64,000 nt of DNA, taken from NCBI GenBank assembly GCA_037379345.1, contig CM074518.1:16120001-16184000 (forward strand). The letters run 5' to 3'. Below are positions 13,772 to 47,433 of the stretch, in pieces. The notes under the pieces were generated by a model, which worked only from the letters and a program-made list of their open reading frames with translations, was not told the DNA's origin and did not search any database. The first letter of the stretch is position 1. Every line of letters starts with the position of its first letter. This DNA is from Perna viridis (Eukaryota). The translations under genes were made by a program, and so were the position numbers.

Positions 13772-13844
13772 TATGGTGACAATTTAGAGTATATAAAGTT
13801 CAACTGTGTTATCAGATATATTATGACCATGACATTCAATGTGA

Positions 13845-14811: not shown

Positions 14812-15488
14812 CGAGATAAAGGATACTTGAAAGAGACAGTGAAATCAGCCTCATATCTTGACCTACACTTAGAAATCGATGGTACAGAAAACTATTGACC
14901 AAACTTTACGACAATAGTGATGACTTTTTCATTCAGAATTGTCAACTTTCCTTTCATCTGTGGAAACATCCTATCAGCACCTGCGTATGGAGTGTTCCTA
15001 TCACTACTCATACGTTATGCCAGAGCTTGTCGAAACTACGCAGACTTTTTGTATCGCACTAGTATTCTAACAAATATGCTTCTGGAACAGGGTTATGTTG
15101 CTACAAGATTAAAGTCATCACTACAAAAGTTTTATGGTCGTCATTATGAACTCGTGAATCGTTACGGTGTATCCATGTACGTCAACTGATATGTTCAACG
15201 TGTCATAGTTTTCCTTTCCTCGTTTGTCTACCCCGGACTTGACTTTTTATGAGCAAATCGGAGGGAGTTTCTAGAGAAACAGAGGACGTTTACCATACCG
15301 ATACACGTGGTCCATGCTCCTAGTTTTTAATGGAGTCCGTGTTACGCATTTGCTTTTGTTACTTTGTATGTATGATTTCAGTTACTTTATGTTCTTTTTT
15401 GTGTATGTCTGTTTTCCATGTCTGGTTTTTGTCCCTGGATTACATTTTTTGATTATCGCTATGAACTTGGTTCCCTTGATTACTCTTT
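14812..15488 (+). mobile_element. 5'-truncated Naiad-type PLE, family 1
   Basis: Frameshifted EIKD..SASYLDLHLEID..KLYD..FSFRIVNFPFICGNILSAPAYGV, then the 3' UTR ending TTGGTTCCCTTGATTACTCTTTC. Confidence 0.9.
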
Positions 15489-16794
15489 CAAGTAAACTAA
15501 AAGTCAAAAATCGACACGAAGACATGTTAATGACTCAACATTTGACTGTGGACAGGCATATGTCTGCGATGGGGTTAAACGAGTTTTATAAGGCCTTATA
15601 AATAATTTTACTTTTATGAGAATACCGTTCTATCTTTGTATCTCATAATTTTGAAACAATATGGATTGCACCTGTAAATTTTTCATTATAAGTTATATTT
15701 CAAAGAAAATCTTCCGGAAACAATTTCGTTCCCTGCCTTATTTATCTTGAGTTATTAACTGTGACCTTTATAAACGGTGGATGTGAAACATTTTCTATTA
15801 GCAGGAATCAGTCAATTACTCCTTCCAAAAATATTGGTAAATTGTAATGGATTATTCAAACGCTTTTAACAAAACCAATATAAATTAGATAAATAAAAAC
15901 AATAACACTTTTTCAAAATACAATTATTTCGAATGAACAATTTTAACCTCTTAACGATTCATTCTTTGCGTTCCATAAACCGGTACGAATAGAACGACAA
16001 AAAGTAAAAAAAATATCTATTGGAAACACGTACTGTGTATACAAGAGAAAATGTTTTTTTTTTCTAATTTGACAATCTTTTAATTAATAATTGAATTGTG
16101 TGTTTTATATTGTGGTGAAATATCAAAATTGCATTAATCGTGACGATGAATCTAAGTGCTCCGTATTTATAACTGGGTGACATTCTAAATATCTTCTGTT
16201 TTCGAACAAAGAAAGTTTGAAATATATCATCAGGTAATATATATTTCAACTCTTTTTCAGTTCTTTGAACGACAGATCGACCAAAACGTATTTCCTTTAA
16301 TCGTTATTAACTCGTTTGTTCTCAGCCTTATCTTTACAAACATGGAAAACTGAATTTATTCATTCTGGTAATCAATGATAGAGCGTTTTAAGGAAGCGAT
16401 TGATTTTAAATTAAAAAAAAATGGCATAAGTAATAATAATTGTAAATTGCCAAGGGTTTCGGTAAGACTATTCTCATATTAAAGACGTAAAATTTGAAAA
16501 TATCCATGCGCTTTTTAAAGGCTAAATGAATTCACAAACATATTCTATTGTGAAATCTAATTAACATTATAAAGGAACTAAAATTAATGTACAGAACGGA
16601 GTAGTCAACGCCAATATATGCAAAATTAATTAACCCAGTTTTAAAGTAAATACTACAATAGCAATAACATTTTACACCAAATGAGTACAATGTATCCTTT
16701 ATATTGAGGTTTCAATTTAAACCACAAACATACAAAAATGTAAAATAATAAAAAACGAACATTAGTAAGGCTGTTTGTACCTTTCTTAATTTCT

Positions 16795-17170
16795 TACAAT
16801 TAGGCTTCAGGGTTATATTGCTACAAAATTTGAGTCATCACTACAGGTATTTTACGGTCGCCATCATGAATTACGGTGTATCCATCTGCCCCACGAGAAC
16901 CGATTTGTTCATCGTGTTATAGTTTCTTTCCTCTTTTGTCTAAACAGCCAATATATTTTATAAGCAATTCGTTGGGTGTTTCTAGAAAAGCAGATGTCGC
17001 TCCTTACCTGTCCGTGCTTCCACATTTTGATGGAGTCCGAGTTGCTCATTTTCCATTGTTTCTTTGTGTTGTTTTGGTTATTGCATGTTGTTTGTTGTGT
17101 GTGTCTGTTTTTCTTGTATTGTCTATAATCTGTGATTATATTCTTCTGCTTTCTGTGCAAATTTTTAATG
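16795..17170 (+). mobile_element. Older, diverged PLE family-1 3' fragment
   Basis: CAGGGTTATATTGCTACAA..TCATCACTACAG..TTACGGTGTATCCATCTGC plus a diverged UTR motif. Confidence 0.8.
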
Positions 17171-18439
17171 TGACAAAAATTTAGTTCAAGTGAAAACAAA
17201 ATTATTCAGTTCCAACGAAAAATTAAAAAAAATATGTTTTATTTTATAATAAAATTCACGATCCCAGCTTCAATTAACTTGGCTCTCCTCCCGTCTAGTG
17301 CTTTCCGCCTATGACACCAACATTATACTTTGATCTAACTGTCTTTTATTTTTATCATGTTTTATTGTATATTTATATTTAGTTCATGTTTTACCTCTGA
17401 TATGTGACTCCTTTTAACTTCTTTATATTTTATAATTCTTAAAATACCTATAGTTTAAGACATTTCAAAATGTTGACTCCAGTCAAGGTCGTCACTAGGC
17501 TTTCGCTTTGGTTAAATAATTATTTCTGTCATGTAATCCCCATCACGAAAGGTGTAGAATATATTATATTTATATGTGTAGCCAGTATTTTCTTGCTTAT
17601 CATCTGCTTAGAATATTGAATCGGACTATAGTATTAATGAATACGATTATTCTACTTGAGGCAAATAAGTCAAGTCTTTGCATTTTGTATGAAAATTATT
17701 GTAAACCTAAAGAAAAGACATACTCTTTACTCCTAACTAATAACAAAAACACTACACTGTATCTCCCGATTATTACACAAATTAACTGAACTCGGCAAGG
17801 ACTTTCTATATTGAAATTTACAAATTCACCTACATTCTAACTGACCAAATTTTCAGAAAGTAAAATCGTAAAGAAACACAAACTTCTTGCTACCTTTTTT
17901 ACAAGTTGAGTCAAACAGCACGAAAGTTCTTACTATGTAGTGTGTACTATGTACTGTTTTTGGTCCCCATAAAATATTGTGGGACCATTTTTAAGGATAA
18001 GCCTATAATGATACTCCACTGATATTCCAAGTATTCCTTGGACAATACGTTTACAGAAATTAAATATATATAGGTATCATCATGTAGCCCAATGTCTCAG
18101 CCTTCTAACCATATCAAACAAATTACAATAACATTTAGGTTTGTAGAGTAAAAGGAAACATAATTACCCATACCCAACAGAATAATCGGTTAAATTGATT
18201 TTGTAATGTAAAACCCCTAGAATATTTATGTCTTAATAAAAAATTGCTTATATGGTATGCCTTGTTTAGAACTATCACAGTGGATACTACCGGACTTCTT
18301 TTTGTGACTTGTGGCGATTTCTTTAGTATCAAAAATGGTAAGAAATCGGATTTTCAATTTTCCTATAAAAATGCATGAATTCGACTCCTTAGTTATTGCT
18401 CAAACAAGTTGGTCAAATTTGGTATAATTTGTTAATTGA

Positions 18440-20345
18440 TTCAATTTTCTACATAATAAAACCATTTAAAAAGGATGGAAAGCAAGTTAGTTCAAAATCA
18501 CCTATTCTCGTAGTGGCATTAATCTTATGTGGATACTTAAAAATTCTAAAGATTCACTTTAAAACCTAAAATCCACAGCTTTCCGGAAATAGTTCTCTCA
18601 AAACTTTTGACTTCTCAACTCTTTACACTACGTTGCCACATGATAAACTGTAATGTCGTTTGAAAGATCGTTTTCGTGATTCGTTTGCTGATTCGAAAAA
18701 AAGCATGTTGTTTTTAGTTACAAATGCAAATTACAAATTTCTAAAACATCACAGAAAGGTAAAAAGTATTACACAGAAAAGTATGTATGATAAAATATTT
18801 ACCACATTTGGAGGAGATATTTTTCAACAACAAGTTGGCATTCTAATGGGCACTATTTGTGCTTCTTTCAAAGCCGATTTGTTTTCGTATTAATACGAGA
18901 TTAACTTTCTTCAGAATCTCGTAAAGAATAAAAATATGAAAGATGTTAAATCCTTTTGGTAAATGTTATCATCATATATCCACCAGGAGGGGCCGTGCAC
19001 CTCTTATAGCGCATCTTTCTGTGCTGTTTCTAATCACAGTTTATGGCTAGAATAAATGAAAGCCTTTCCAAACAACATTTGGTAGAAAAATAAAACAAAA
19101 AATACCTTCAGATATTTGGACGATATTTTGGCTCTTCACAACGACATCTTTAATATTGTTATAGAAGATATATACCGCAGAACATAACAAATACCGATAG
19201 TAAAAATGTTCGTTTCTTGATATTAGTATTCATATCAATAATGGTAAACTAAGTACTTAAATTTACTATGTAAGGGATTTTCATTCTCAATTCTTAACTA
19301 TCCGTTTTAATACGGTATGGTCCCATTGGCACCATCACATAGTGTTTACATATCATTATTATTTCGACTTGTTTGCATTTGTAACAATGTTTCGGATTTT
19401 AACGAACAAAATCTTTATATAACCGATACAAGGAACTCATTCTCAACTACAGATGTACTTGTAAACGATTAAAACATTCGGATTTACCCCACCCTAAATT
19501 ATATGGTAATATTCTTCACAAAGTACAGAAAGCTCAATTCTCACCCAGTAAGTTTACAAAACCGCTGAATAGATTTATTTGGAACGAATATAGTTACATA
19601 TGATATTTTTGCAAAGTGTTAAATATACCATTTGTTGGTGTTAACATTGATTCATTCATAGGATCTTTACATAAAAACTAACATTCTATATTTAAAAGCA
19701 GTTTCTGGTATGACATAGTTTGTACCTTTATTGTATGACTTATGATAAACCTTAATTCTCAACTCTACATGGAAATAGTTTGGATCGATATTGCAGAGAA
19801 TAAGGACACATTTTTCGTAGATTTGAACTGGTATAAATCTCGCGCGTCAGTAAACTGCTAGTAGTCCTTTGTTTGTGCGATTGTGTAACGTATACACATG
19901 TAATCGGTTCTTTTAATTTCAAAAAAGGAATGATTTTTAGGTGAGCTTAATTGTGTAATATTTGCTCCACAGTGACCAAATCTAATAAGAGGAGGGTTGT
20001 GATCACGCCAAAGTACTTTAACGTGCCTCATGTATTGCTCCTGTCCTAAGTCAGGAAAGTATGGCCTCGGTATGACTTCTAACCTTTTTACCTTCATTAT
20101 TCTTTAATGTTGCTGGAGTCTATAAGGGCAACTATTTCGTTTTTGTTTTTTTTTTTTTTATTTTTTTATTTTTTTTTTTTTTTTTTTTTTTTTTTGTCAG
20201 CTGCAGCAGCCTGTCCGTAACATGAGGGTTTCTTTTATGTTAATTGAAAACCCATGGGTGACCTTAAGCTGACATTTTTTTCATCCCAAGGGGGGAGGGG
20301 GTTGCTGTCTCGTCTACATATTCATCATATCCATGTTACTAATTT
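18440..20345 (+). mobile_element. Degenerate Naiad-type PLE, second family (RT pseudogene plus long 3' UTR)
   Basis: Broken translations WILKNSKD, TFDFSTLYTTLPHDKL, GGDIFQQQVGILMGTICA..ADLF, TFRYLDDILAL, NYPF..VPLAPS..VYIS, ending GSLHKN* at about 19681. The 3' UTR differs from family 1. Confidence 0.85.
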
Positions 20346-22239
20346 TGGTATGTTATTATATATTTCTTTCCATTTAAGTTCAAATTTAGTACATAACTGA
20401 AAATCACAATCGGCATATTTATATAATCCGTCTATTCCATGAATATCGCCCATGTTGTAGTTTGAATTACAAGGCAATAGCTTCTATAAGTGAGTCTGTA
20501 TAACGTAAAATTTCACTTACACTAGAATCATTGTCTTTTTTAATTGAATAACATTTTGTATCGATTCAAAGAGAATTCTTTTGAGACACATTGTCACATT
20601 AAACATCAACACAACTTTCACGTATTATGTTATCTCGTATAATGTGACAACTTGTCCCATGGGGACAATTTGAATTCGTTTGCTTTTCAATTAAATAGTT
20701 TCTAGAAAATGAGCAACCTAGAAAAGTTTTGCAATATTAACAAGCTAATAAATGGATGATCTTAAATGCGTTAGATAGAAAGGTTGTTTCATTAGTTTAT
20801 AGAATAATCATAAAACAATGCAAAATCAATTATTCTTTAATCAGATTATGGAAAAAGCGTGTTATCCGACTACAAACACATTGTTAAGTGCTTTCTAACA
20901 AATATGGGGTATTGTAACAAAACGTTGCACATGTAAGTGAAGTTTAATTTTGCAGCTCCTAATTTATAAATCTGGATAATTTTTAGGGAGCCACACATAT
21001 TTCATAAATACCAACATTTCAAAGGGAAAAGTATTAACAGCAAGACCACAGCACACAATAAATTTAAATTGAACGGGGACATTATAAATCTCCTGTGTTT
21101 CGCATATATGGCTTACCAGATTGAATTGTTATTAACACCTCTTTGTTGATTTGCATTAAGTCATTATATGAATAACTGTTGAAAGAAGACATTGATCGTA
21201 TTTTGAAACTAAACCATTAGCAGTCCAGAACCTTCGAGTCAACAATCTATAGTTTCAATTGTGACTGTACAATGCATGATCATCATAGATGCCTGAATCT
21301 GATACATTTTCTGTTTCTTGCAAATGATCCTATCAGTAAAAAATTATACACTGACAATGTTTCGAGTTTTTGGCAGACATGTTGGAACCAGTTTATGATC
21401 TTTAGCTTCAGGACATTAATACAGAACATTTTCTGTTAAGGGAATATACGTCAACTTGAAACAGAATTAAACGTTTGAAGTAACTTCATTAGAGTCTTAT
21501 TTCCAACACAAATACAGACAAATATTTCATGACTGCGTGAATTTTATTCATGCCGTTCTAATGGATCATTCTCAACATGAAATTTCCTATAAATGTATTT
21601 CTGCATTCCTTTATGTCACTTTAAATATGTGATTATCCCGTTTGAACTTGTTCATCGATTGTTAGATTCAGAATTGCTGTAAGTATATGGTGTCGAACCG
21701 AAGGTATATAAAATGGATACATGTACCAAATTACCAAGACTACAATGACGATTGAACATGTAATAAATTGTGTGCTGAAAATTTTGAAAAGAACGAAGCT
21801 TATACATTGACTGTTCGCTACGAACCGTTCGTGTAAGTTTGTTTATTAAGCGTTAAGCTTCAATCTTTATTATCAATTACTTTATGTAATTGCTTTTTTT
21901 ACCGTGAAGCGTTTATGAAAAAAAAATTCTACACAACATGTATCATGAATACATTATATTAGCGTTCTTTTTTAAACATGCGTTTTATATTTGATGCGAT
22001 AAACCAAAAAGTAGGAGCAGATAAAATTTGTGAAACATCAAGTTTTCAAGCAAAACGAAATATATTTTCCAACGTTAGATGACACACGCCTGATCAAACC
22101 CGCTATGAATCTGTGCATGAGGAATATATACAAGTTATATCCAATGTTTTATGAGAATCATTCAAATCAGATAATCGTATTTTTATTGATGATAATGAAC
22201 ATATTTTTCACTTTGGTTTGAAATGGCCAAATCAGTATA

Positions 22240-22360
22240 GGCAGGGGACGCTAATTCTACCGGTACACCTTGTCCATTCTTCCAGTGTTTAGTGGAGTCT
22301 GTGTTGCTCATTTACTTTTGTTACTTTCGATTTTTTATTTTGATTAGTTTATTTTCTTAG
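22240..22360 (+). mobile_element. PLE family-1 3' UTR fragment
   Basis: GCAGGGGACGCT..CTACCGGTACACC..GTCCAT..TTTAGTGGAGTC..GTTGCTCATTT. Confidence 0.75.
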
Positions 22361-25300
22361 TTCATAGTTCAAATCGATTTGCAAGTCCATAATGGTATCT
22401 TTAAAAGAAGTCCGTTCTTAACTAGATATAGGCAATACATAAGATGGTGGCAATCATCTGAGCATGACAAGGTTATACAAATAAAAATTGACTGTGAATA
22501 GCTAAGCAAAACCGAGCACTGAATCGACGATTGCTAGCTGGGATAATTCACCATTGATTTTCACCGTGATATTGCATCATTTTATGGAATTGCTGTGCAT
22601 AGTGTTAGATTTTAAAATTTATAATGTATGAAGAAAGAACAGTTATGTAGACTAAAAAATTTTGTATTTTTATTTTGTATTTTTTTTTGTATTTTCACAT
22701 TCGTTTGATTCTTATTTTTTTTTTTTTTTGTATTTTTCACATGCGTTTGATTCTTATTTTTTTTTTTGTATTTTCGTTTTGTGTCTGCTTATATTTTTAC
22801 TACTTTTGTTTTACTTCTGTGTGTAATTTGACGTCAAATTGCAAGGCAAACTTTAAAACATATATTAGTGTCATTTGATATGATGTCAACATTGTAAAAT
22901 TTTGAAATTAACTTTTATCTTAGTTCCATAACAACGTTTATATGATCGATTTAGCAATGGAGTATATTAGAGAGACAAAAACGGCTACAGCTGCAAATTT
23001 GACCGAGATCTGACAAGACATACAGAGTATGTTCACCACTGATAACATTGGATGCTTTAAATTCCTCTTGGTAAAATATATAATGGGCGAGAGAGAAATC
23101 AGAGTCACGCACCCGAAATACCCCATCCCATCACCATCTAGAGCAAAAACAGAAGTGCAGCAAACCATACGCATGTAACTTTTCATCAATTATTTAATTA
23201 CAGCAACATTTTTATAAACAATTACCTTGGAATCTCAAACTGCGAACAGAAAAAAACTGGTCACTCATGGTGTATATAAGATGACATCATTTAATTTCAA
23301 AGCGTGCACGGATACGTACTACGTAGTTAATTACGACTTGGGGCCATTGTCATCTCAACGAGCGAGTCGATACTAACTATCTATCTAAAGGTGGGAGGGG
23401 ACTTCCTGAGGTGGTGTATCTGCAGACGAATATAATATATGAAATTTCATAAAATCCGAACGAGATCATGAATCAGCAATTACATTAATCGACCTGGAAT
23501 ATACTCTGCCTTGAGCTAGATGGCACCATTGTTCCAACAAGAGATAAAGATCTAGCTGATTTAATTGACTTTTTGTTTACTAAAACATCACCTGTTTGAT
23601 TGTATATATAAAGCACATTGTTTTCATTTTGCAGAAAGATTTCGCATACATATATTGCCATAGAAAATAATTCCAAAAGTAAAATATCCTTTAAAATGTC
23701 AATTCGCATCAAACGTTCGGGTCATACGGCCTTTATAATTACATACGTGTTGGTGTTATTTAAAGAATGATGACGTCACTGTAAAATAGGTAAACAATTT
23801 TAACCCTTTTCCGGATTTCAAATTAAGAAAAACGAACAATAGATAGCAATGTTTAGCTTCAATATAATTATTTTATATTTTACAGATAAACCTTATTGTA
23901 CGTATGTGTTTTAAGGAAGTATACTTCATTTCTCGACAGCATTATACCTTCTACTATTAATGAATTGCCTTATACCATAACATTTACAGGGACTATGTTG
24001 AGTATTGTAGTTATACAATTTAATGTAAATGTATAATGTACGTGTTTCTAATATGACGCCTTCATATCGTCAAACAGTATAAGTCGGTACAACCCCACCT
24101 TAAGCACCTGCGCACTGTCTCTTTTCTTTCGCTGTCGCTTCGAGACAAAACACTCATTTAAAAATGTTTACGCGATGATTTTACGGTTGAGAGGTTACCT
24201 AATTGAAATCAAGTATATAAATGCACACATTTAACACATACGATGACACAAAATCCATACGGGAGGAGGGGGGTTAAACGGAACAGTCGTTATTTTGGCT
24301 ACGCCTACGAACATTTTTGTTATAAAAATTACCGGATTTGTCATATTAGGAAAGGAATAATTCCTTCCTCGCTGTCGCTTGGTGTTATATAATCGAATAT
24401 AAATGCTGTACCCATGCTAAAATCAGTACAAATCTACCCCTTCCACGAATTACTTCGTAAATGACGTATCTTAAGTAGCAACTCGCTAGTGTGGGATAAC
24501 TATGTATTTATGCCAATGTTATGAGGTTTCAAACGCAAAAAATTATACTATTTTTATTACTTTATATGGCTTACATAAACTGAAAATCTGGATATGTTTC
24601 CTTCTACGATTTTAGATTTTACAAAGAGGTTCCTCAGACTACAAGTATTACTTTAGATTGAACTGAATGTCTTGTTACATTGAAGCTAATAGTCGTTTTG
24701 CTGATATATTGTATATTTGTTTGTATTGACTTTCAACTTCACAATCACCAAGAGTTCGTGTTTGATGATTATTTATATTGTCAGAAATAACTTAACTCCT
24801 TTTGACAAAATGGATCGGTCGGAGTCTCCATTGGTCTTGAAATGTTATTGACTGCTCTTGTTACTTTTTCATGATTTGTTATATCAAAGACAATTTATAG
24901 GAAACAATTTCTTTCACTGTCTTATCTGTCGTGAGTATTCGAACTATGGCCTTTATAAACGGTAAGTTGCTGTTATACTATTTTACAGGAATCAGCCAAT
25001 TTCTCCTTGCTAACAATCAGATAAATTGTAATGGAATTATAAAAAGTTATTACTAATACCAAATCAATGAAGTTCATACGTGCTTTTCAGGAAGTAAATA
25101 CAAGATAATAGCGTTTTTTTTTCCAAAGTACAATTATTTTGAAAGAAGTCCTCGTTGTTTACAAATACTTTTTGCGTTTTATAAACTGGTGTATATTGCA
25201 ACAATGTTCATTAGGGAAGAAAAAATCATTTTAGCTGTGTAGCAAAAACCTTTCAATCTGGAAAATTATTAAATTAAAGTGTAATTTACGTGATTTATCA

Positions 25301-25399: not shown

Positions 25400-26165
25400 A
25401 AAATATATAGTATTTGGTGGAATCTCCATACTTTGTAAAAAATAACGATTCCAAAGCATCTTCTAAATACACCGGAGAGAAGTCAAAATGGTGGACTCAA
25501 AAAAAAAAAAAGAGGACAATGCAGACACTATGAAGTCAGTCTCATATCAAAACCTACAGTTAGAGATCGATGAAAAAGGGAAAACACATGACCGAATTAT
25601 ATGACGACAAAGGCAATGACATCTCATTTCGTACTGTCAACTTTCCTTTCATCTGTGGCTATATCTCCCTTCAGCACGTGCGTATTGAGTTTTTATATCA
25701 CAACTCATTTATTATACCGGAGCTTGCAAAAACTAGGCGAACTTTTTGTACCGAGCTAGACTTCATACAATTAGATTTCTGGAACAGGATGATATTGCTA
25801 CAAGATTACAGTCATCACTAGAGTAGTTATCATGGATCGTTATTGCGTATCAATTTGTTCTATGAGGACCAATTTGTTTAACGTGTCAGTCTTCTTTTTT
25901 TCTTTCTTCCATCCCGAACGTGATATTGTATGAGCAACTCGATGGATATTTACAGACAAACAGAGGATGTTTACCTTACCGGTGTATCTGGTCTATGCTG
26001 CATATTTTAAGTGGAGTCCAGTTTGCTCATTTACTTTGGTTTCTGTGTCGTGTTGTTTTGGTTATTTCATGTTCTTTATTGTATGTGTCGATTTACCTTG
26101 CCTAGTTGGTATCCTTTGAATATATTCTTTTGATTTCGCTAGAATCTTGGTTTGTCTGATTGTTT
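25400..26165 (+). mobile_element. Older degenerate Naiad-type PLE copy
   Basis: YFVKNNDSKASSKYTGE.., GCAGACACTATGAAGTCAG, ELYDDKGNDISFRTVNFPFICG, and a diverged UTR (ATGAGCAACTCG..). Confidence 0.8.
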
Positions 26166-26287
26166 TATAACTTAGGGTAAAACTATAAATTTGTTCAATT
26201 TATGAACAAGGAAAACTTAAATATATCATTTCCAATTCCTTGAACGAAAAATCGTCCTACACGGATATGTCCATACTAGGGTAAAAT

Positions 26288-26600
26288 GCCACACATGTGT
26301 CACGCATGTACTTTAAAACACATGTGAAACAGGTGTATCACATGCGTATTACGCATGTTTCTTGCCACACACGGGAAACATGCCTGGCACACATGCGTTT
26401 ACATGCGTGTCATACACATGCGAAACACATGTGCCGGAAAACTCATGTATCAAGCATGTGTTTGGAATACGCATGTGACACTTGCGAAATGTACATGTGT
26501 TACACATGTGTTTGGAAACGCATGTAATACATGCTAAATTTACATGTGTAGTTTACATGTGTTGCATATGTGACATGTGCTTTAATGCATACATGAGTGC
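26288..26600. repeat. Subterminal CACATG/CATGTG array (left; mirror array at about 33890-34065)
   Basis: Dense short repeats in both orientations; these generate the spurious ORFs at 26297 and 26355. Confidence 0.85.
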
Positions 26601-32346: not shown

Positions 32347-35300
32347 ACATCATGTGACAGATGATCAGTTTATACTTTATGGATCAGTTGTTTTGGTTTT
32401 CCATATTTACACATATTATCTAAATTATATACATTGTTAATTCAGACACTTGTTGATTTACTTGTCTATCAAATTTACTGAAATACAAAATGTTGATTTA
32501 TCATTTAAAGCGTTAAGAAAATTTAAAATGTTACTTTATTATTTCTGATAAACATTCTGATATTAACATCAACTGATCATCCATCATTTTATTTAACAAA
32601 ACCACTTTTAGATCCTACAGTGATCATTGTGGTAACATGTAAAGCTATATTTCTTTCCATTATCAGGGCCTTGCCATTATGTTACAACTTGTAACTTACA
32701 AGTCATGTCAGCGCTGTAACTTTGTCATTTGATGTAAGCTTGATATTTGGCATGTGGGTATATCAACTCAAGATGTATAAATGATCTTTGACCTTGAACT
32801 TTAACTGCAAGGTCAAATAATGTAATTAATTATTTTGAACACAGATTAGTGTCCAGGCTGTAACTTTGCTGTCATTTAGTGTAGGCATATTGATATTATG
32901 GTAGTATTGAGGGTATATGTATATCTGGTCAAGAGCATGTGTGACATTCCATCAAAATCAGACTGGAGGATAAAGTTGAAAGGGGGTGATCATCATAGCC
33001 AGGATAGAATAAGAGGGAAAAAAACAACATTTTCCTGGTTTCCGCCATTTCAGGCCATAAATAAGCGTTTTCTTCATTTTTGTATGAATTGATTGTTTCT
33101 TATATTTTTAAAATAGTAGATTTTAAAGGCTTTTGATATCTTTCATTCTGGTCATAATCATACATGCTTTGTCAAACATCAAATCACAAGAAAGATTTTA
33201 ACTTTCCAGAGCCGAGTCAAGTTTTAGAATGTTTTGTCTATACGTATTGTTGACCTCACTCTGTTAATCATATTGTGTTTAGTTTTTAGTATATTAAGAT
33301 GTATTTTAGGTCAAGCATTAGTTATTACAAGTTATGATTACTTACTTTGGCTGCAATTAATTAATTTTGTTTTCTATAAAACATTATCATATCCTTTATA
33401 ATACATATAATTTGGAAGAAAATCTAAGATATTAACAAATGTGCTTTATTGTTCGTTTGCTTTTGTTTTTATCTCAATACCAGTAAATGTTTGCTATTTT
33501 ACAGAAATTTAAACAAAGTGCAGCTCTTTACCGGTATATGCAAGTATTATACATCATAACTTAATGAAGATTCATTTTGGGGTTAATTTTCACTGATTAT
33601 CTTTACTTATTTATACAGGGATATGGTATAATGAACAGCAGGAAAGCAAATATGGAGTAATATAAAGAATCCGAATGATGAAACCTGGATTCGTAAAAGC
33701 AGATATCCATGTATCGATGAGGAAACCATATTCCTGTTATAAATTGTTCTTCTCAAAGCACTTACAACAGCTAATAATGAATAAAATTAAAACTAAAATA
33801 AATGATCCAATACAAATTCAATGCTGTTGCACTTGAGAACAATGATATATGATAAACCGCATGTTAGTTGGATTAGGAGGGCAATTGAAAGTATACATGC
33901 ACCATAATTTTCACATGAAATAATTACACCTGTGTCACATGTGTATTATTTCACACATGAAAAACGCATGTGAAACGCATGATTACATATGTGATTCATG
34001 CGTATTACATCTGTTTTTCACACATGTATCACATGCGTGTCACACGCATGTGAAACACATGTGTGGCATTTTTACCAGTGTAGCCTTATCGATACAAACA
34101 TGAAAAATTGAATTTATTCATTCTTGCAAACAATGATAGAGTGTTTTAATGAAGAAATTGAGGTTTATTTCTGGCATAAGTGATAATCTAAGCAATTTTC
34201 GAAAATGGGATACATCAGAAAGTAGGTTGGTTAGGTTGGTTATTCAACATGTTCCATTAACATTGCTATTGTTACATGAGCAACGGCCTTTAATATCAAC
34301 TCATACGTAATACATACCATATATGATAATGCCGAAGCAGAATTAGAATAAAAGATCCTTGCATTTTTGGAAGGCTTAGTGTATTCAACAAACTCCATTG
34401 TAAAGTTGAATAAACATTATAAAGAAACAAAAGTTAATAAACATAACAGATTAGTCAAGTACATATCATTGGTATTTTTTTTATATGTGCTTTAGATAAG
34501 CACGATATTTACGAAATAAAATAAACCTTTTTAAAGCATATTATAGTATAACAAAAACATCATTAAGATCAGATGATTAGAACGTAGCTTTTACATTGTG
34601 CTTTCAATTAAAACCTAAAATGTACACAAATGTCAAATATACACAATCCGACAAAACAATGAAATCTGTGTGATGTGACAAAAAATCATTTCAATTAAAT
34701 ACTAAGTTTTTCAGCTCCAACATAACATGATATTTTCAGAATAAAGTTCTTTATATAACCCTCCCAAGGTTATTTTGCGTCTTTGTTGTGTTTCGTCTCC
34801 CGTCTACTTCCCATGACGAGGCCCGTCAACTCTCTTCTTTTTATCACGTTTTATCCAAATTTATATTTATATTTAGTTTATGTTGTACTTCTTATATGTG
34901 GCTCCCTTTTACTTGTTAATATTTTAATTTTCTCAGAAACTTAATTTTTCAGTAACAGAATTTCTTGATACACCGCGGAATGCTTTCCTCTGTCGAAGTG
35001 TTTTGGTTTTTGCCTTCGTCAAGTGATGATATCAGTATATATCACGATGCAATAACAGAGTTTAATCCATGAGAAACACCGGACATAAGGGAACAACATG
35101 GTATTTTTCAAAATGCAAACCCCAACCAAAAAAGAGGATACAGCTGAAATGTAACTTATGGTTTATTTCTACGTACAAGCTTTGGTAAACTATATAAAGC
35201 ATTTGCAGTAGATATTTTGACGAGTATATAGCCATTTTTTCCTTATTTGAAATCAGCTGAGAATATAAAAATGACATAAAGTATGAAATATCTAGATAAT

Positions 35301-36072
35301 TATACTTGAGGTAAATATGTCCCGTCTTGACATTTGGAACAAAGATCATTGCAGACCCAAATCAAATATATTTACATGGTATAACTCGTTTTGGTACAAT
35401 ATTATATATTTGTTATCATTTCCATTTCAATTTAATACAAAACTGAAAATCCAAAGTCGGCATATTTATACATACCGGTGTATCTGGAATTCCTTCTACC
35501 TAGAATAAACTTTCAAACATGAACACTTAATAATGGAACAAGCCAATAGCTTGCAAAACTGAAAGCATATAACATAAAACATTTATTTGCGCAAAAATAA
35601 TTGTCTTGTTTCAATTGAATTATTGATTACAAAGAGAATTCATTTGAGACACATTGTCACATTAAACACCAGTACACTTTGACGTTTTATGTTATTCCGT
35701 GTAATGTGACAACTTGTCCCGCGGGAACAATATGAATTCTCTATTTCTTTTGTTTTTCAATTAAAAATTATCTAGAAAGTGAACAATCTAGAGAGTGTGT
35801 TGGTGTTTGCAACATCAACAAGGTAATAAATGGAAGGTCTTTTATGTGTAAGATAAAGAGGTGGTTTCATTAGTCATTACAATAATCATAAAAAAATGCA
35901 GAGTTAATTACTTTTCACTCAAAGTTGGCATTAAAATAGATGTGATCCGACTATGATACATTTGGTGAATGCAGTCCAACAAATATATAATAAAATACCT
36001 CGGAAAGTTGCATATGTAAGGGACATTTTATTTTCCAGCTCCCGATTTGAAAAATTAAAAATGTTTATTGAG

Positions 36073-36158
36073 GAGTAATCAAGAGAACTAAGATTCTAGC
36101 AGAAATAAAAAGAATGCAATCCAGGGACAAAGACTAGACTTGGAAAACAGACATACAC
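36073..36158 (-). mobile_element. ~85-nt PLE family-1 3' tip
   Basis: GAGTAATCAAGAGAACTAAG..CCAGGGACAAAGAC..GGAAAACAGACATACAC. It is absent from the paralogous sites at about 20985 and 44275. Confidence 0.85.
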
Positions 36159-39100
36159 ATACTTTATAAATATAAAAAATTGAAGAGAAAAAGTGTTAGC
36201 ACCAAGATCAAAGCACGCAAAAAAATTAACAGGGATAATAAACAGTCCCCCGTGAATCGTATATATGGCTTTCCAGATTAAATGGTTATAAATATCTTCT
36301 TTTTGTTTTGCATAAAGTCAATATACCAACAATGTGCATAATATACGTTGATTACACTTTGAAAGTCACTACTAGAAGTGTAAATACATGTCAAAACCAA
36401 CGAGTCGACAATCTATAGTTTTCTGTTTTAACTTTTCACTTATGAGTGTAAGATCATCATAGATTGGGTATTTATTATGAAGATTATGATTTTGTCATCG
36501 TTTCTCATGAATGGTGCTATCGACATAATATATATGACAACGTTTAAGGTTTTGTTGAGACCTCAGGATCTGTCAGAGGTCAACTTGAATTAGACTGAAA
36601 CAGACAAGACCAATAGAAATCTGACGTACTTATGAATGTCACGCCTCTCAGACCAAATAAAGGACAAAACAATAAACTCTGTTCACGTGTTATCAGATGA
36701 CCAATCGCTTCATTTACTATTGTTTACTACTACAACTGTATGTTTTACAATAACTCACGTGTAAATTATAATAAAACTCTTTCCAGTTTTCCGGAAATGT
36801 TGTAGTTCCGATTACACTTTATTATAAATACATATTAGGTTTTTATGATATTCTACCGATTCCATGCTGACATAAAAAAAAATATATGTAAATTTGACTG
36901 CGACGTAAGGATTTACTTTCAAGTAACTACTTCTATGGCGGCACACGCTTTCTTCTAAGATTTATTATTTACTAAATTATGTATTAACAGTCCCTCGGTT
37001 CATGGAAATATTACGTCATGCAATACTTTTGGTGTTTTCTGTTATAAAGAAGGCAATAAAAAGTAGTGGTGTGGATATATCAATTGGGAGTGTACATGAA
37101 ATTAAATTAAAACACGTTAGAACATACGAACATGTAATAATATCCCATTGACTTAATTAGAAAGCCATTTCAGGTATTCAATGTAACTTCATCTGGGTCT
37201 TACGTTCACCACCAATACGGATTTTTTTTTAATTACTGCTTGCTTTGATTAACAGCTGTAGCCTGACCAGTGGTATGAGGATTGACGACCCATGAATAGC
37301 CTCGAGCTGACATTCTTATCCCGGTGAGGTTGTTGTCTCCTTGATATATTCACCAGATCCATCCTTGTTATATTTTACAAAAAACAATTATTTTTTTTTA
37401 TAAAATTATTATTGAAATGTAAGTGTTACAGCCACCAATGTCCTACTAATATTTACAGCTTATACATTTTATACTGTAATTCAATACCCTTATGTTAGTT
37501 AGCAGTGTTTGTACTTATGCATTTTGCAGAAATGTATTTAAATATTTAAAATTGAATATACTCTTAATCTTGAACTTTATGAAAACAATCATTTTCCTTA
37601 TATTTAAATCATACCATTCTTTTGGAACATTTTCCATACAATATTTCTAATAATTGCATTTCTGACTGATTTCCTTTTTGTTACTTAAACAAACACTAAA
37701 ATACTGCAATGTATGTTGATGTAACACTTGAACTTTTTTTTACTTATTTGTAATTGCATAAACATTGTAAGCACATTTTGTTCAAATTTCAAAATGTTGG
37801 CGAAGCTAAGATAAATAAAATGGATACATGTGCTTCCGTTACGGTCTTAAGTCTACAATGAAAGTTGAACATGCATTTTTACGGAAACGCGTTTAGTAAA
37901 ACCGATTGCTTCATAAATACATTATACAAGTTTTGAATAGTACGTTCTTAGTTTTTAAAGATGCGTTTTATTTAACCTGGTAAACCGGGAATTATAGACA
38001 TACCACGATTTCAGATCGGCCGGCAAACATAGAATTCAAGGCAAGGAAGCGCCATAGTTCTTGAAAAATTCTTCGCACTTTTGTTTGAACTGGCTATTAT
38101 TTTTTTAACAATATGCACTACTTTGAATAGCGCGTACACAAGTCAGAAATTCTTTTTTTTATTATTTTTCATTTTAATCTGTCGTATCTATTACTTTGCA
38201 ATTTGACTGACAAACATTTTTGTTCATTTATTCGTATTAAATATTTTCTTCATTTTGGTCACAAAATGACATACATAAGACCGTTTATCATTGGCACTTA
38301 TCCCCAATGGTCTCTTATCTTCCCATGTATACATGTAAGTGACAACTTGATCTATAGTAAAAATTATCTGAACTTATTTATGATATATAATGTATTTGAG
38401 TCGAAGCCGTTTGTTCGTGGCTTGTTTTACCCAAAATTTATTGAACTACTATAAAGTGTAAGAATCAGGCAGAGTACAAGAAATAACAAAAACATGCATG
38501 TCAAAACAAAAAAAAAAACCACTGATCTGACAATATATAATTTCACTCAAGGCTGCTTTCTCTACGTGAAAAGAAAACATTATTTGATCTCTGCATCATT
38601 GGACTTGTTCAGAAAATTTTAATTAGAATGATAGTAAATTTAGGCGTTCGACAGAGTTATCTGCCCTTGAAATGTTTATTATCACTTCATTTCAATGAAC
38701 GTACAGCTCAATTTACCACAAATATATGAATATTTTTTTTTATTCCGATGGTGCAAATGGTCAACTTAAACTTTTTTAAATGATGGTTTTTGTTTTGTTT
38801 TGTTTTGTTTTTTGTTTTTTTGTTTGTTTTTTTTTTCACAAAATGTTCCATGCTTGATAGTTCTGTAATTGTTTACCTCGCAAGATTATGTCAAAAACTG
38901 TTTCTTGTCGCCGTCCCGTCATCAAAATAAATTAGTAAGTCTATATGGGCTTAGGTAAAATGAGTCCGTTGTTTTCAAATATGTAAGTAGTCCATCAAAA
39001 ATGGGAAAAGAAAATAATTTCATACATATCAAAATATCCAAATATCATATTAAGATTGTGGATAGCTTTATCAAAAAGTAGCACTGATTCTACGTATGTT

Positions 39101-40718
39101 ACCTGGGATTATTGACCATTAATTTCCTTAAAGCTGCTTTAGCTGCCAAATTTGTTAAGTTTTGATTCCACTGAATTTTGCAGATTCAATGAAAACAGTT
39201 TGTAGTAATGCAATTGAAGCAATAAATCTCGATAATGCCTTCAGAATATTGTGAAAACAACGTTTTGGTAATCAAAGAAGATCGATCGTTCAAATCTAAT
39301 TATTTTTCGCCATTATTTCCGAATATTGCCGACATGACATTCACCTGGGTTAAAAATACTTTCACCTTGATTAAATATAGCAATAAAGGATACGCAGGTA
39401 AGCACATGTCTTGTTTTCATTTCATTTCATCATTTTCTGGATTACTTTTCAAATAAATAATGACAATTACTGACCACATTTGTGCCATATTATATAATTA
39501 TACGTGAATTACAAAAGGATCCTTGCGTTTTATTCGATTTTTTTTTTCGTTTACGGAAAGCATGTCTTCCTTGCCGTTGATTAACTACTTTCGCTTTGCA
39601 ATCATATGTTTGTTTGTTTTTTTTTTAGAATCGACTCTTACAGCACATTCGCGAATTTAGGTCACCAGAAGTTACATGCATACGAACTTTATTTAAGTCG
39701 ACTTTTTTGTCTTGCAAGACAATATATGTATCGAGACCTATTTCATGTATTTAATTCATTTTATTTGTGGATATCAAATGAAATTATACACGAAAAGTAC
39801 AATTTCATAGAAAGTTAAGGCAAAGTTAAGGCATACTTCAACAGAGACTATTTTTTTTACGAAAATGACAGCTGAAGCAGCTTTAACTTCACCATATTCT
39901 CCCTGCATATCTTAATTTTCATTCGAGGAATAACCGCTATAACCTTGGTTCCCTTGATTACTCTTTGACAACATATTCTTTGGAATTGGTTCCTTACCAA
40001 GAATGGACACTTACTACCAAGTACGCGCTATTATTTATCTATGCATTCCGTCTTTTTTTATGGAAACATTGATGTGTAATGCGTTTGGGTTGTTATAAAT
40101 AAAGAGTTCTCAGAGATATCACCATGATAGATGAATCGCGTACATCAAACCTTAATTAAAGAATTTTAAAGATTCAAAGACGCAAAACAAATTTTCTTCC
40201 CCAAAAAACATTTTTGTTATATATATACTGGTTTAGGAAACGAAAAGAATTTTTTGTAAACAACGGGATTTTCATTCAAAATAAATGTTCTATGAACAAA
40301 TGTAATCAACTGGTATTTATTTCGCGAACAGTAGATATGCACGTCATAGGATTGGTGTTAGTAATAACTTTTTATAATTCCATTTCAATTGATCTGATTG
40401 TGAGCAAGGAGTAATTGACTTATTCCTCTACGTGGGAACAGCCTTACCGTTTGAAAAGGCCATAGTTTGAAAACTCAGGACAGATAAGACAAGGAACGAA
40501 ATTATTTCCGTTGAATTTTCTTTGATATAACTAATCATGAAAAATTAACAAGTACAATCAATCACGTTTCTAAACTAATAGACACTCCGACAGATGTGTT
40601 TTGTCATAAAAGTTAAGTTATCACTTATACTCCTGACAAAACATAATTATCATCGGCAAATGATACATCTAGTTGGTTGGTAACTAGAAAAAAAACAAAA
40701 ATAAATGTAAAAGTATGA

Positions 40719-41280: not shown

Positions 41281-41294
41281 AAAAAAAATTGGAT

Positions 41295-42599: not shown

Positions 42600-45500
42600 A
42601 AACGAAAAATCGTACTACACGGAATTTGTTGATTGCTATTTTATCTATCATAATTAACTTTTCTGTCCTTAGCCTTATCATCACAAACATGAATAATTGA
42701 ATTTGTTCATTCTGGAAATCGATGATATAGTGATTTAATGAAGCGATTGATGTTTATTTCTGGCATACATGATATTTAAAGCATTGTCCATAGTTTTTTT
42801 TATAACCAGGGCAACGGGTTTTAATATGAACCCATACGTGATATATACTAACGTATGATATAACCAAATTATTACTAGAATATTGGTTCCCTTGATTACT
42901 CTTAAAAAATATCCATGCATTTTGTAAAGACTATTCATATTCAACAAACAGCAATATCGTGAAATCTTATAAACATTATAAAGGAACTTAATGTACAGAA
43001 CGGAATATTCAAATAAGCAACGCTATTATTAACGAAATAAAGAATAATTTTAAAATATAATACAATAACACAAACATTGTTACATGTAAGATGAAATGGT
43101 AACAACGCATCCTTTACATTGAGCTCTAAAGCGTACACAGATGTAGAATATTCACAATCTCACAAAATGATAGCAAAACGTGTTAATGTGATGAAAAAAA
43201 ATATTCAAGTAAAAACGAAGTCATGAAGTCCCTTCACGTGGGCTGTAGACAATGTAATCAATTATAATTCCTAAGATAAAGGACAATTGAGTCTTTTTGA
43301 CAAAATTAAAAGACCAAAGAAAGGGAAAATGCCTGAAATTTAGTTATTGGCTTATTTCTATGTATTAGTAACCTATATAATACATTTGAAATCAAGGTGT
43401 TTTATACATTTTATCCTTGTTTTACATCAGCTAAGAATATAAACCCGAAGTAAAATATCAAAGAATACGATAATTATACATGAAGCGAAAATGTTACTTC
43501 TTTGCACTTTGTACAGAGATCATTGTAGATCTAAAGATGACATATGTAACTATTTTTTTTATGATATCATATATCTGTTTTCTTCTCAATTCAAATTAAT
43601 TACATAATTGAAAAGTTTTAAACAAAAAAAAAAACACAGTATCTTTTTGCATTCCGTCTATACCGCGAGAACCTTCCATATTGTATTATAAATTGCATCT
43701 AGCAAGTATAACCTTTCAAACATGAACAGATCTTCATTACTAAATAATGAAACAAGCCAATCACGATCTGAAACATGACACAGTATACAAAATCCAACAT
43801 AGAACATTCATTTGCACAGAAATAATTGTTTCTATTGAACTATCAATTCAAAGAGAATTCATTTGAGACACATTGTCACGATAAACATGAAAACAATTTT
43901 CTCGTATTCTGTTATCACGTATAATGTGACAACTTGTCCCATGGAAACAATACGAATTCGTTTGTTTTTTTCAATTAAAAATTATCTAGAATATGAGCAA
44001 CTTAGAAAAGTGCATGTAACTTGACCATCTAATAAATTGAAGATCATTTATGGAAATGATACAGGGGCTGTTGCATTAGGCTATTAAAGATATCATAATA
44101 CATTACACTGCAAAAATATTTTTCGATAAATTTTGGGATAAAAATGCGTTTTATTCGATTACAATAAATTTGGTATGCGTTTTCTAACAAATATAGGATA
44201 TTACACCAGAAAACTGCACGTGTTAGTGAAGTTATATTTCTGAGCTTCCGATTCAAAAATTAAAATGTTCATTAAGGACTACACATAGTTTATTAATTCC
44301 AGAAATTCAAAGGGAAAATGTATCTACACCAAGATCATAGCATATGATAAATGCAATGGATAATATAGGATATAAACATGTATATTAAGCTTACCAGATT
44401 GAATTGTTTTTAATTTGTGTAGTTCACGTCAGTGTGCATAAAATTAATTTGCCAATAAGTGTTCAAAATATGCATTGATCGTATTTTGAAACTAAATAAA
44501 ATACATCATTAGAAGTGTAAATATACGTTCATAATCATCAAGTCTACGTTCTGTAAATTTCGGTTTTTAAGATTTCAATTGTGAGTGTTTGATCACCATA
44601 GATGCATAACTATAGGATATTTTCCGTTTCTTGTGAATGATCCTATCTGACAATGTTTAAGGTTTGTGTCAGACATGTTGGCACCAGTTTATGACCTTTA
44701 GCATCAGGATTTAAATACAAAATATGTCCTGTCAGAGTAATATACGTCAACTTGGCATATGATTACAGCTAGTTGAAGTACACCAGTTCCAATTTCAATA
44801 CAAATTTAGGAAGGCTAGTGAGTAATTTAAATAGCTCTTTGGGTAGAAATCTGTCCTACATTATACCCATGTTTCCTTTCTAACTACCACAGAAAACCTG
44901 TGTTATCTTTTGGATACTGAATAAAATTTGAATAGTTGTCAATTATGACAGTTAAAGGCAAATTAAAAGATTAAGGTCATCATAACTGACAGCTATTCAA
45001 AATTAAAAGACAGTGTCCAAAAGATACACAGGTGTTCTGTGGTAGTTTAGAAGGACACATTGGTATAATGTAAGACACATTTCTACTTTCAAAGCTATTT
45101 GAATTACTCACTAGCCTAGCTAGATTTGTATTGAAACTGGGACAGGTCTATTTCAACTAGTTGTAAACGTTTGAATGAACTTCATCTGGATCTGGTTTCA
45201 AATACATATATAGAAAAAAAAACGGTGTTTTTTTTATTAGTTTGGCTTTTATTCATACCATCATTATAGAACATTTTCAACATAACATTTTTAATGATTG
45301 CATTTATGTATTCCCTTATATCACTTAGACAAATACAAAATTACTGTAACATATGCTGATATACCGCTGAATTTGTTTATCGATTTTTAATTTCAGAAGC
45401 GTTGTAAACACAATTTTCAAAATGCTGGTGAAGGAGAAATCAATAAATGGAAACATGTACCACCATTACTGATGTTCCAAGGCTTCAATCAAGATTAAAA

Positions 45501-46760
45501 ATGTAATGGGGCATGTGGTAACGAATTCAGCTTATGCATAGATTGTTCTCTACGAACCATTCGTGTATGTCTTTTTTTATAACTATTATTTTATTTTACT
45601 TTTTTTTTTGGCGTTTGTTTTAACTCTCTTTAATAACTATGCTTTGAGGCATTTTGAAAAACAAATTACACCATTCCATACACCATACCAAATTCCATTG
45701 TATTAGTGTTGTATAGAATTTCCTTGAGTTTTACATGATGAGTAAAAATCAATGATTTCAGATAAGGGAGTCGTAAATAGAGTTAAAGGCCCAGCTGAGC
45801 GAGGAAAGATATTGGGAGTGAAATTGTGAAAACTGAAGATTTCAAGCAAAATAATATTTTCCTAATATTATTAAGGGTTGATCGACGGGTCTACCCAATT
45901 ATGAATTTTTGCATGATCTATTAAACTTCTTACAAGAACATTCAAAGCAAATAATCTTATTTTGATATTCATTCATGATAAGGAACGGTTTGTGTAATAA
46001 ACATGGACTTCATACTTTGGTTTGAACTGGCCACATTAGTATCTTTCACCGTGTCCACTGTGAATAGCGCTAACACAAGTAAGAAGGTTTTTTTTTATTC
46101 CTTTTTATTTAGTTTATGTATTTATTAACTTACAATTTAACTATATATTTTATATATTTGTATAGAATATTACTTCATTTTGGGTCACGAAATGACATAC
46201 ATAAGACCATATGTCATTGACACCTTATAACCAATGTTACCTTATCTTCCCATGTACTATAGTAGCATATTACAGTGAATAAACCGAACCTATTAATGGT
46301 CTAAAATGTAATTCTAAAGTCTAAAATTGGTTCTGCCTAATATTTAGTCGACAGAGTTTCTAGAGACCTGCGAATATATAAAACCGTAATGAAACATTTC
46401 GCTTAAGATTGAACGGCGTTTATTCAGAGATGATTTTCGTTAAAGAGTATTTCAATACATCTGATATTTCATCAACTGTTTTAGTAGCTTAATATGATTA
46501 TCCTCGTAATTAATTGAGTGACTAAGATTATGTCCAACACCTGACATATCACTGCTTGCACTATAAGTCACCCTATTCAGTCCACAGCTCCATCATCAAT
46601 TTGCAAGTCCAACAGTGGTTAGGCAAAACAAGTCCGCTGTTTACAAGGACGTAGGCAATCAATAACAATACATTAGTAATTAGTGCATTACAAAATTATT
46701 AAAGAAAAAACAAATTAATTGTAAAAAGCAAGGTCATAAATTAATTGCATTGATTCTACG
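42600..46760 (+). repeat. Copy 3 of triplicated segment
   Basis: Same collinear landmarks as copies 1 and 2. Confidence 0.8.
44766..45163. mobile_element. 398-bp fold-back MITE, Tc1/mariner-type (TA TSD)
   Basis: TA|CAGCTAGTTGAAGTA...TATTTCAACTAGTTG|TA with imperfect inverted arms of about 185 bp. The empty site GAAT-TA-AACGTTTGAA is at 21464-21479. Confidence 0.9.
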
Positions 46761-47433
46761 TTGTACAAATAACATAGAAAGTTACCAACTTTTTTCTGTT
46801 TGGCAATTTAATGTTCGTTTTTACTTCAATCCCGGAAATATTCTCCTAGAGCACGCAACCGTTTCTAGAAACATATTAAAGACGTCAAATTTTCTTTTGT
46901 CTTTGTTTTGAAAAAATCGATGACGCTGTCGCTTTTAAGACGTTTCATTGCTTAAGAGAACGAGTTACGAGGAATGCACGTTCGGTTCCTCATCATACAC
47001 GGGTCATCTCAACTAGCAAGGAGTCCTTTTCGAAAGAATTTTTTTTCCCAGTTGACCACTGAATTAGCTGTTAGTACGCGCAACAATATAAACATATTTG
47101 TGTAAAGTCTACTTATTTCACAGGTCTTGCCGGGCATATAACAAGACATTTTAACGGACAGCATTATAATTCGTTTATACTACAATATGTTAATTGGTCG
47201 GTTGCCACAAACTATTATTTTAACAAAGCATAGCTGATTTGGATCTTACTTAGTTGGAAATTAGTCAGTCTATATACTGCCATTAGTCCCGACAATTATG
47301 AACAATTAATTATATAATTAAAGAATTCATTTTGAAAATGAAAAGCGATATAGGCATGTACGCATGTATCATGCCAAAATTCTAGATCTAAAAATGAGGC
47401 ACCACATGTAATTTTCATGTATCATATTTGCAG

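What the first reader, a model, noticed from the sequence alone, without database searches (positions are those of the whole stretch)
20567..20678. Strongly conserved double-palindrome element in all three segment copies
Seen at 20567-20678, 35630-35740 and 43849-43960: CAAAGAGAATTCWTTTGAGACACATTGTCAC (31 nt, one variable base) and TAATGTGACAACTTGTCCC (19 nt, invariant), with variable spacer and flanks. Each block holds a GNGACA-N3-TGTCNC palindrome, 60-61 bp apart. The two blocks are also inverted repeats of each other (TTGTCACATTA/TAATGTGACAA), and GAATTC brackets the unit. The first site read on the minus strand (GTGACAATGTGTC) fits the DMRT/doublesex-type ACAATGT core, and TGACA is a TALE-homeodomain half-site. 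Inference: an undescribed cis-regulatory module for a dimeric factor, or a structured ncRNA, and possibly the selected core of the triplication.
Basis: partly seen in the sequence, partly recalled or inferred. Interest (0 to 1): 0.72.

Follow-up and report, generated by a model that had tools for sequence, protein, structure and literature searches.

The report
Triplicated mussel hairpin, likely new microRNA
Three old tandem copies of a non-coding stretch in a mussel genome each keep two nearly unchanged, mutually complementary ~22-base arms around a freely drifting loop, the pattern of a likely lineage-specific microRNA gene that has not yet been seen as a small RNA.

Summary
Three ~70%-identical non-coding segments share a 30/31 and a 19/19 invariant block, the only invariant runs over 12 nt (permutation p about 5e-4). 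There are exactly three copies in the 723-Mb genome, so it is not a MITE family. The host is a mytilid mussel (inferred from a neighbouring protein). The two blocks are the two arms of one hairpin. The arms are 20/22 and 20/22 invariant; the 35-36-nt spacer is 23/36, near background. This is the saddle profile of microRNA genes, and the minus strand folds at z -4.2 to -4.5 in all copies. The N3 'palindromes' are not enriched genome-wide (49 versus 42 control), and a DMRT-type site fits only one block. Against a canonical microRNA: the precursor is 79-80 nt (molluscs are reported under 80), the lower stem is patchy, there is no CNNC, no compensatory change, the strand is unresolved, and no small-RNA data could be tested. 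No Rfam match; it is not Mir-1994, whose two true genes lie on another contig. Verdict: likely a new lineage-specific microRNA family in three paralogs (0.5); a DNA regulatory module is the main rival (0.27).

The parts
20580..20659 (-). Copy 1 hairpin, predicted 80-nt precursor in the minus-strand register (5p arm 20659-20638, 3p arm 20601-20580); the plus-strand register would be 20582-20661
35643..35721 (-). Copy 2 hairpin, predicted 79-nt precursor
43862..43941 (-). Copy 3 hairpin, predicted 80-nt precursor; two changes at the loop end of arm 1
20567..20597 (.). Block 1 (30/31 invariant): 12-nt flank with GAATTC plus 18 nt of arm 1; also 35630-35660 and 43849-43879
20640..20658 (.). Block 2 (19/19 invariant), arm 2; candidate mature strand in either orientation; also 35702-35720 and 43922-43940
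20604..20639 (.). Variable spacer or loop, 36 nt (35 in copy 2), 23 of 36 columns invariant
20652..20668 (.). Short 7-bp inverted repeat overlapping the outer end of arm 2; on the minus strand it stays 7/7 paired in all copies through G.U and would compete with the base of the long stem
   Evidence: sequence
20672..20677 (.). Outer GAATTC, predicted to pair with the GAATTC at 20573-20578 across a 10-nt bulge
16290..22540 (+). Triplicated segment, copy A (approximate ends; interrupted by dispersed-repeat insertions)
34050..39130 (+). Triplicated segment, copy B (approximate ends)
42630..46770 (+). Triplicated segment, copy C (approximate ends)
16324..16440 (.). Second conserved block of the segment (about 80% pairwise), not a hairpin, with invariant GATA-type and Fox-type words (labels recalled); possible enhancer; also 34082-34190 and 42670-42780

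Best explanation
The element is a hairpin-forming pair of nearly invariant arms around a variable loop, present three times in a tandem triplication, and is likely a lineage-specific microRNA gene. It would be transcribed, more likely from the minus strand, as part of a non-coding primary transcript. Drosha and Dicer would release a ~22-nt duplex from a 79-80-nt long-loop precursor. Block 2 would give the mature strand (minus-strand 5p, seed GGGACAA; or plus-strand 3p, seed AAUGUGA) and repress mRNAs through its seed. Selection on the mature and star strands would keep the arms fixed while loop and flanks drift. Shown: copy number, conservation profile, complementarity. Predicted: the fold. 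Inferred and untested: transcription, strand, cut sites, targets.
For: Saddle profile: arms 20/22 and 20/22, spacer 23/36, background 54-59%; PMC4105746 (passages) describes this profile as near-universal for microRNAs. The two best-conserved runs are complementary: 54 of 57 cells paired over 19 pairs on the minus strand, 50 of 51 over 17 pairs on the plus strand; slid controls 20-53%. Minus-strand fold z -4.36, -4.51, -4.22, with 0 of 200 shuffles as good in each, past the -3.5 filter used in PMC2082411 (passages). A 22/22 duplex with 2-nt overhangs can be drawn whose ends nearly coincide with the ends of the invariant blocks. No protein similarity was found between the copies beyond short low-scoring frames, and copy 1 had zero depth over 20460-21979 in 3 of 3 raw RNA-seq runs (19-25% of each read) and 1 contig set, so it is not an exon of an mRNA expressed in those samples. 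The non-complementary positions and the N3 'spacers' are invariant too.
Against: The precursor is 79-80 nt with a 35-36-nt loop; MirGeneDB 3.0 gives a median loop of 15-16 (SD about 8) and under 80 nt for molluscs, and this genome's Mir-1994 precursors are 57-58 nt. The in-register lower stem has 4-8 of 13 pairs, against 12 and 7 of 13 for the two controls. No CNNC and no basal UG in 30 of 30 register-strand-copy cases. No compensatory change in the arms. The strand signal conflicts: invariant mismatches and the spacer fold favour minus (p 0.042, 0.48, 0.026), but 2 of 3 paralog changes in the stem keep pairing only on plus. Invariance of 12 further nt outside the duplex is not required by the model. 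No match among the listed microRNAs of eight molluscs including a Mytilus species. No orthologue could be examined.
Confidence: 0.5

Rival explanations
1. A DNA cis-regulatory module: two inverted copies of a composite transcription-factor site, part of a ~150-bp enhancer carried along in the triplication and acting on the flanking short-chain-collagen-C4-like or HtrL-like gene. The hairpin would be a by-product of the inverted sites.
For: Block 1 matches the DMRT1 13-bp core at 10 of 13. Identity stays raised over 20567-20725. The segment holds another conserved, unstructured, enhancer-like block and lies 5' of both neighbouring genes. No compensatory changes and no RNA reads at copy 1.
Against: The N3 palindrome is not enriched genome-wide (49 versus 42). 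The DMRT core is absent from block 2. The N3 positions and inter-site differences are invariant in all copies. The conserved lengths and the loop dip fit ~22-nt arms better than 6-13-bp sites (inference).
Confidence: 0.27
2. A structured RNA that is not a long-loop microRNA. On the minus strand the whole ~33-bp stem has the size of a canonical pri-miRNA, so Microprocessor would cut 13 bp above the base: the invariant arms would be the lower stem and the variable upper stem the product (51-52-nt precursor). Alternatively a cis-acting hairpin switch in a rare transcript.
For: Basal UG at -14/-13 in 2 of 3 copies in this register. The spacer folds better than shuffles on the minus strand in copies 1 and 3. 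A competing 7-bp hairpin stays paired in all copies.
Against: The upper duplex has 18, 13 and 14 pairs and only -9 to -12 kcal/mol. Sequence-level invariance of a lower stem with a drifting product is the reverse of the usual pattern.
Confidence: 0.13
3. No function: a decayed fold-back or transposon relic that predates the triplication, with the high identity due to chance or short gene-conversion tracts.
For: The inverted repeat extends loosely into the spacer and out to the GAATTC words. Unrelated fold-back repeats are common in this genome. Only three sequences support the statistics.
Against: Permutation and Markov tests give p about 2e-4 to 2e-3 for the joint pattern. Conversion would have to hit two separate tracts in all three 70%-identical copies and skip the spacer. 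No dispersed family and no target-site duplication by inspection.
Confidence: 0.1

Closest known systems
Canonical bilaterian microRNA genes (MirGeneDB 3.0, PMC11701709)
   Same: Two ~22-nt arms with 16-19 predicted pairs, central mismatch, U at a plausible position 1, saddle-shaped conservation, local paralogs.
   Different: Loop 35-36 nt and precursor 79-80 nt, at the stated mollusc limit; patchy lower stem; no CNNC or basal UG in the registers that keep the conserved arms; expression not shown.
Mir-1994 (Rfam RF03386)
   Same: The plus-strand arm 1 shares the first 7 nt with miR-1994a-3p as printed in PMC7328434; occurs as local paralogs.
   Different: Seed differs at nt 8, the 3' half differs and the arm differs; the element has no RF03386 hit, whereas two true Mir-1994 genes lie on contig C12.
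DMRT/Doublesex binding site (PMC1931443)
   Same: Block 1 holds a 13-bp imperfect inverted repeat around a central A/T, 10 of 13 identical to the DMRT1 probe.
   Different: One site per copy only; explains 13 of about 50 invariant bases; says nothing about block 2 or the complementarity.
MITE / fold-back non-autonomous transposon
   Same: Imperfect terminal inverted repeats around a short spacer.
   Different: Three copies, all in homologous flanks; no target-site duplication; more conserved than its flanks.

Membership tests
microRNA (canonical) | Two arms of 20-27 nt pairing with about 19 +/- 1.6 bp | tested here: met
   Predicted 19, 18, 17 pairs on minus and 17, 17, 16 on plus; ranges
microRNA (canonical) | Arms more conserved than loop (saddle profile) | tested here: met
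   20/22, 23/36, 20/22 among three paralogs; orthologues not available
microRNA (canonical) | Precursor length within the mollusc range (<80 nt) | tested here: inconclusive
   79-80 nt, loop 35-36; cut sites are only predicted
microRNA (canonical) | Lower stem and processing motifs (CNNC, basal UG, CmR); common, not obligatory | tested here: not met
   No CNNC or UG in 30 of 30 cases; full CmR only in copy 1, minus strand, register +1; lower stem 4-8 of 13; controls 12 and 7 of 13
microRNA (canonical) | Small-RNA reads from both arms with uniform 5' ends and 2-nt 3' overhangs | not testable with these tools
   No small-RNA library among the 24 runs listed
Mir-1994 | Same seed and mature sequence; match to RF03386 | tested here: not met
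MITE | Many dispersed copies in unrelated flanks | tested here: not met
   3 hits by DNA search; 16 versus 26 control at 2 mismatches; 4 versus 2 at 1 mismatch; these searches give lower bounds
MITE | Target-site duplication | tested here: not met
   Flanks are inverted, not direct, repeats (sequence)
DMRT/Dsx site pair | 13-bp inverted repeat around a central A/T in both blocks | tested here: not met
   Present in block 1 only
DMRT/Dsx site pair | Protein binding or enhancer activity | not testable with these tools
   needs EMSA, ATAC/ChIP or reporter
H/ACA snoRNA | Pseudouridylation pocket, second hairpin and ACA box (features recalled) | tested here: not met
   An ANANNA word follows the minus-strand hairpin, but the stem has no pocket, the downstream sequence is not conserved and Rfam gives no gathering-level hit

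The most novel reading that the evidence does not exclude
A mussel-specific hairpin locus that breaks the rules for mollusc microRNAs: either a long-loop precursor at or beyond the 80-nt limit whose processing is gated by a competing 7-bp hairpin at the stem base, or a Microprocessor substrate whose lower stem is frozen in sequence while the released ~22-nt duplex diversifies between paralogs.
Probability: 0.12. Interest if true: 0.65.

Novelty: new member of a known kind. Interest (0 to 1): 0.36.

Why it matters
If confirmed, it is an undescribed mytilid microRNA family kept in three diverged paralogs, which implies dosage or tissue-specific use. Its precursor sits at the length limit reported for molluscs, a constraint that MirGeneDB 3.0 calls unexplained, so it would be a test case for that limit. 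Lineage-specific microRNAs are common, so the general surprise is modest. If it is instead an enhancer, it marks a strongly selected regulatory module beside two poorly understood mollusc gene families.

Tried and rejected
Rfam at gathering level: 0 hits in the window; at E up to 10, 8 hits on the three loci, none a credible match to the element (one chance snoRNA score overlapping the left flank, E 1.7). Further copies: none by DNA search, by each arm with mismatches, by BLAST or covariance model in 100 kb on each side. Four other places share a 9+9-nt inverted core (6 versus 0 control); they share no more than the searched core. Metagenomes: 0 hits for both arms; 79 hits for one 17-mer, 0 of 79 with the partner arm (best 6 mismatches in 18). 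No RNA holder listed for copy A. Copies 2 and 3 were not examined for RNA reads. Literature: 6 core words gave 3 unrelated papers in the search listing; supplement searches of PMC7773633 (2 files; I did not check that they hold sequences), PMC11067994 (1 file with sequences) and PMC7488030 (6 files) gave no match. A bivalve miRNAome paper that I recall was not held and bioRxiv supplements are closed; either could list this RNA. A second hairpin in the upstream conserved block was rejected (z -0.6 to +1.2). Coding or pseudogene exon rejected: frameshift in copy 2, stop inside block 2 in the best frame, no remnant of the neighbouring genes. Model R1 had a mis-registered structure and was not used. 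SECIS, Y/sbRNA, RAG-like ends and heat-shock elements were considered from recalled features and do not fit by inspection. Earlier scan notes: none.

Full report
Setting. The window is AT-rich (about 32% GC) and lies on contig C8 of a 723-Mb, 46-contig genome. An HtrL-like exon at 48226-49020 (Pfam PF09612) has its best named relatives in Mytilus at 58-59% identity, 26 hits among 309 candidates. The host is therefore inferred to be a mytilid mussel. A gene on the minus strand with exons at 13526-13783 and 8104-8613 looks like a short-chain-collagen-C4-like gene (label recalled; no Pfam hit). Between these two genes lie three co-oriented copies of a segment, about 16.3-22.5, 34.1-39.1 and 42.6-46.8 kb, about 70% identical pairwise and broken by repeat insertions. 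No convincing coding similarity links the copies, and no remnant of either neighbouring gene lies in them.

Observation. The two blocks are present as stated. They are the only invariant runs over 12 nt in three alignments of the segment, and the background three-way identity is 0.54-0.59 in the well-aligned parts. Permutation gives 10 of 20000 for a 30/31 window and 4 of 20000 for two runs of 18 or more; an autocorrelated model gives 7 and 10 of 5000. Genome-wide there are three copies: 3 DNA hits, no arm-2 match with fewer than 2 mismatches elsewhere and 16 total against 26 control, 4 against 2 for arm 1, and nothing more in 200 kb of flanks by BLAST or covariance model. These genome searches give lower bounds.

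Anatomy. The blocks are the two arms of one hairpin. On the minus strand 19 pairs are kept in 54 of 57 cells; on the plus strand 17 pairs in 50 of 51; slid controls give 20-53%. The minus strand folds at z -4.36, -4.51 and -4.22; the plus strand at -2.64, -3.86 and -1.49. Conservation runs 14/15 (left flank), 20/22 (arm 1), 23/36 (spacer), 20/22 (arm 2), 12/16 (right flank). A 22/22 duplex with 2-nt overhangs can be drawn on either strand, giving a 79-80-nt precursor with a 35-36-nt loop. Outside it, the two GAATTC words are predicted to pair across a 10-nt bulge, and a 7-bp inverted repeat overlaps the outer end of arm 2. Copy 1 had no reads over 20460-21979 in three raw RNA-seq runs, 19-25% of each read, or in one contig set. 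Such libraries do not test a microRNA.

Why a microRNA is the best reading. Fixed arms with a drifting loop is the profile described for microRNAs in PMC4105746 (passages), and bimodal conservation with z below -3.5 was the discovery filter in PMC2082411 (passages). The arm lengths and pair counts fit MirGeneDB 3.0 (PMC11701709, passages and first part of section 9). Under a two-binding-site model the N3 spacers and the three differences between the sites should tolerate change, yet they are invariant (inference). Block 2 is the likelier mature strand: positions 2-20 are invariant as a minus-strand 5p, and positions 1-19 as a plus-strand 3p.

What counts against it. The loop is more than twice the median and the precursor is at the reported mollusc limit of under 80 nt. 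As an in-genome control, the two Mir-1994 genes on C12 have 57-58-nt precursors, lower stems of 12 and 7 of 13 pairs, and CNNC at +18 and +22. The element has 4-8 of 13 and no CNNC or basal UG in 30 of 30 cases. No arm pair shows a compensatory change. The strand is unresolved. Two invariant mismatches become G.U on minus, and the spacer folds better than shuffles on minus in 2 of 3 copies; but 2 of 3 paralog changes in the stem keep pairing only on plus. Transitions are 49% of differences here (464 of 954), so these wobble signals are weak either way.

Rivals. A DNA module remains plausible (0.27). Block 1 matches the DMRT1 probe of PMC1931443 at 10 of 13 (passages), and the segment holds a second conserved, unstructured block. 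But block 2 lacks the DMRT core, the 13-mer occurs 3 more times in the window and once in 200 kb of flanks, and the N3 palindrome is not enriched genome-wide (49 against 42). A different RNA reading (0.13) puts the Drosha cut 13 bp above the stem base, with basal UG in 2 of 3 copies; its product duplex is weak (18, 13, 14 pairs) and not conserved. A functionless fold-back relic (0.10) conflicts with the statistics and with the absence of a dispersed family.

Comparison with what is known. No Rfam family matches. The element is not Mir-1994: it shares 7 nt with the sequence printed in PMC7328434 (one table passage), and the true genes are elsewhere. It is absent from the microRNA tables of eight molluscs, including 62 known and 11 novel Mytilus galloprovincialis calls, in PMC11067994 (passages and supplement search hits). 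Supplement searches of PMC7773633 (passages) and PMC7488030 and a full-text search for six core words found nothing relevant. In bioRxiv 10.64898/2026.07.10.737777 (passages) the commonest zebra-mussel loops are 13-16 nt; its supplements were not seen. One recalled bivalve miRNAome paper was not held. No orthologue turned up in metagenomes or in earlier scan notes.

Verdict. A real, selected, three-copy hairpin. It looks like a microRNA gene but cannot be filed as one without small-RNA reads, and it misses the optional processing motifs. New member of a known kind if confirmed; interest 0.36.

Noticed in passing
window 16324-16440, 34082-34190, 42670-42780: Second conserved block of the triplicated segment (about 80% pairwise), three copies genome-wide, with invariant GATA-type and Fox-type words (labels recalled); not a hairpin. 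Its first 9 invariant bases equal the start of Mga-novel-2 in PMC11067994, probably chance.
   Followed up: partly
window 16563-16574, 34413-34424, 42972-42983: Invariant 12-mer with a TATA-like core in all three segments; could mark a promoter on the plus strand.
   Followed up: no
L130 about 1470-1590 (G000:C6, near 40615768): Very stable ~120-nt fold-back (-64.6 kcal/mol) related to a 52-bp tandem repeat in L134 on C14; likely a repeat family.
   Followed up: partly
L127 1495-1559 and 1784-1847 (G000:C12): Mir-1994 pair, 289 bp apart, both above the Rfam gathering score.
   Followed up: yes
window about 44851-45076 (L002 2511-2736); also about 8817-8900, 10241-10345, 26280-26580, 33920-34100: Long fold-back sequences, likely MITE-type insertions; the first sits inside copy C only.
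   Followed up: no
window 48226-49020, 50452-50541, 51321-51392: HtrL-like exon followed by two short degenerate partial duplicates.
   Followed up: partly
window 8104-8613 and 13526-13783; L111 4-467 and 9636-9791: Tandem pair of short-chain-collagen-C4-like genes (label recalled); the copy before the window matches in two frames and may be broken.
   Followed up: partly
window 4450-5200, 11660-12680, 14800-15500, 25500-26150, 27515-27830, 29030-29720, 40720-41720, 47820-48135, 54750-55760: Many 5'-truncated copies of one retroelement with reverse-transcriptase-like frames; the pieces inside 15900-25000 drew RNA reads from other copies.
   Followed up: no
PMC11067994 supplement row 276 versus window 20651-20658 (minus): An abalone small-RNA call shares its first 8 nt, and 12 of its first 13, with minus-strand arm 2, but comes from a 50-nt precursor and the other arm; weak lead only.
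   Followed up: no
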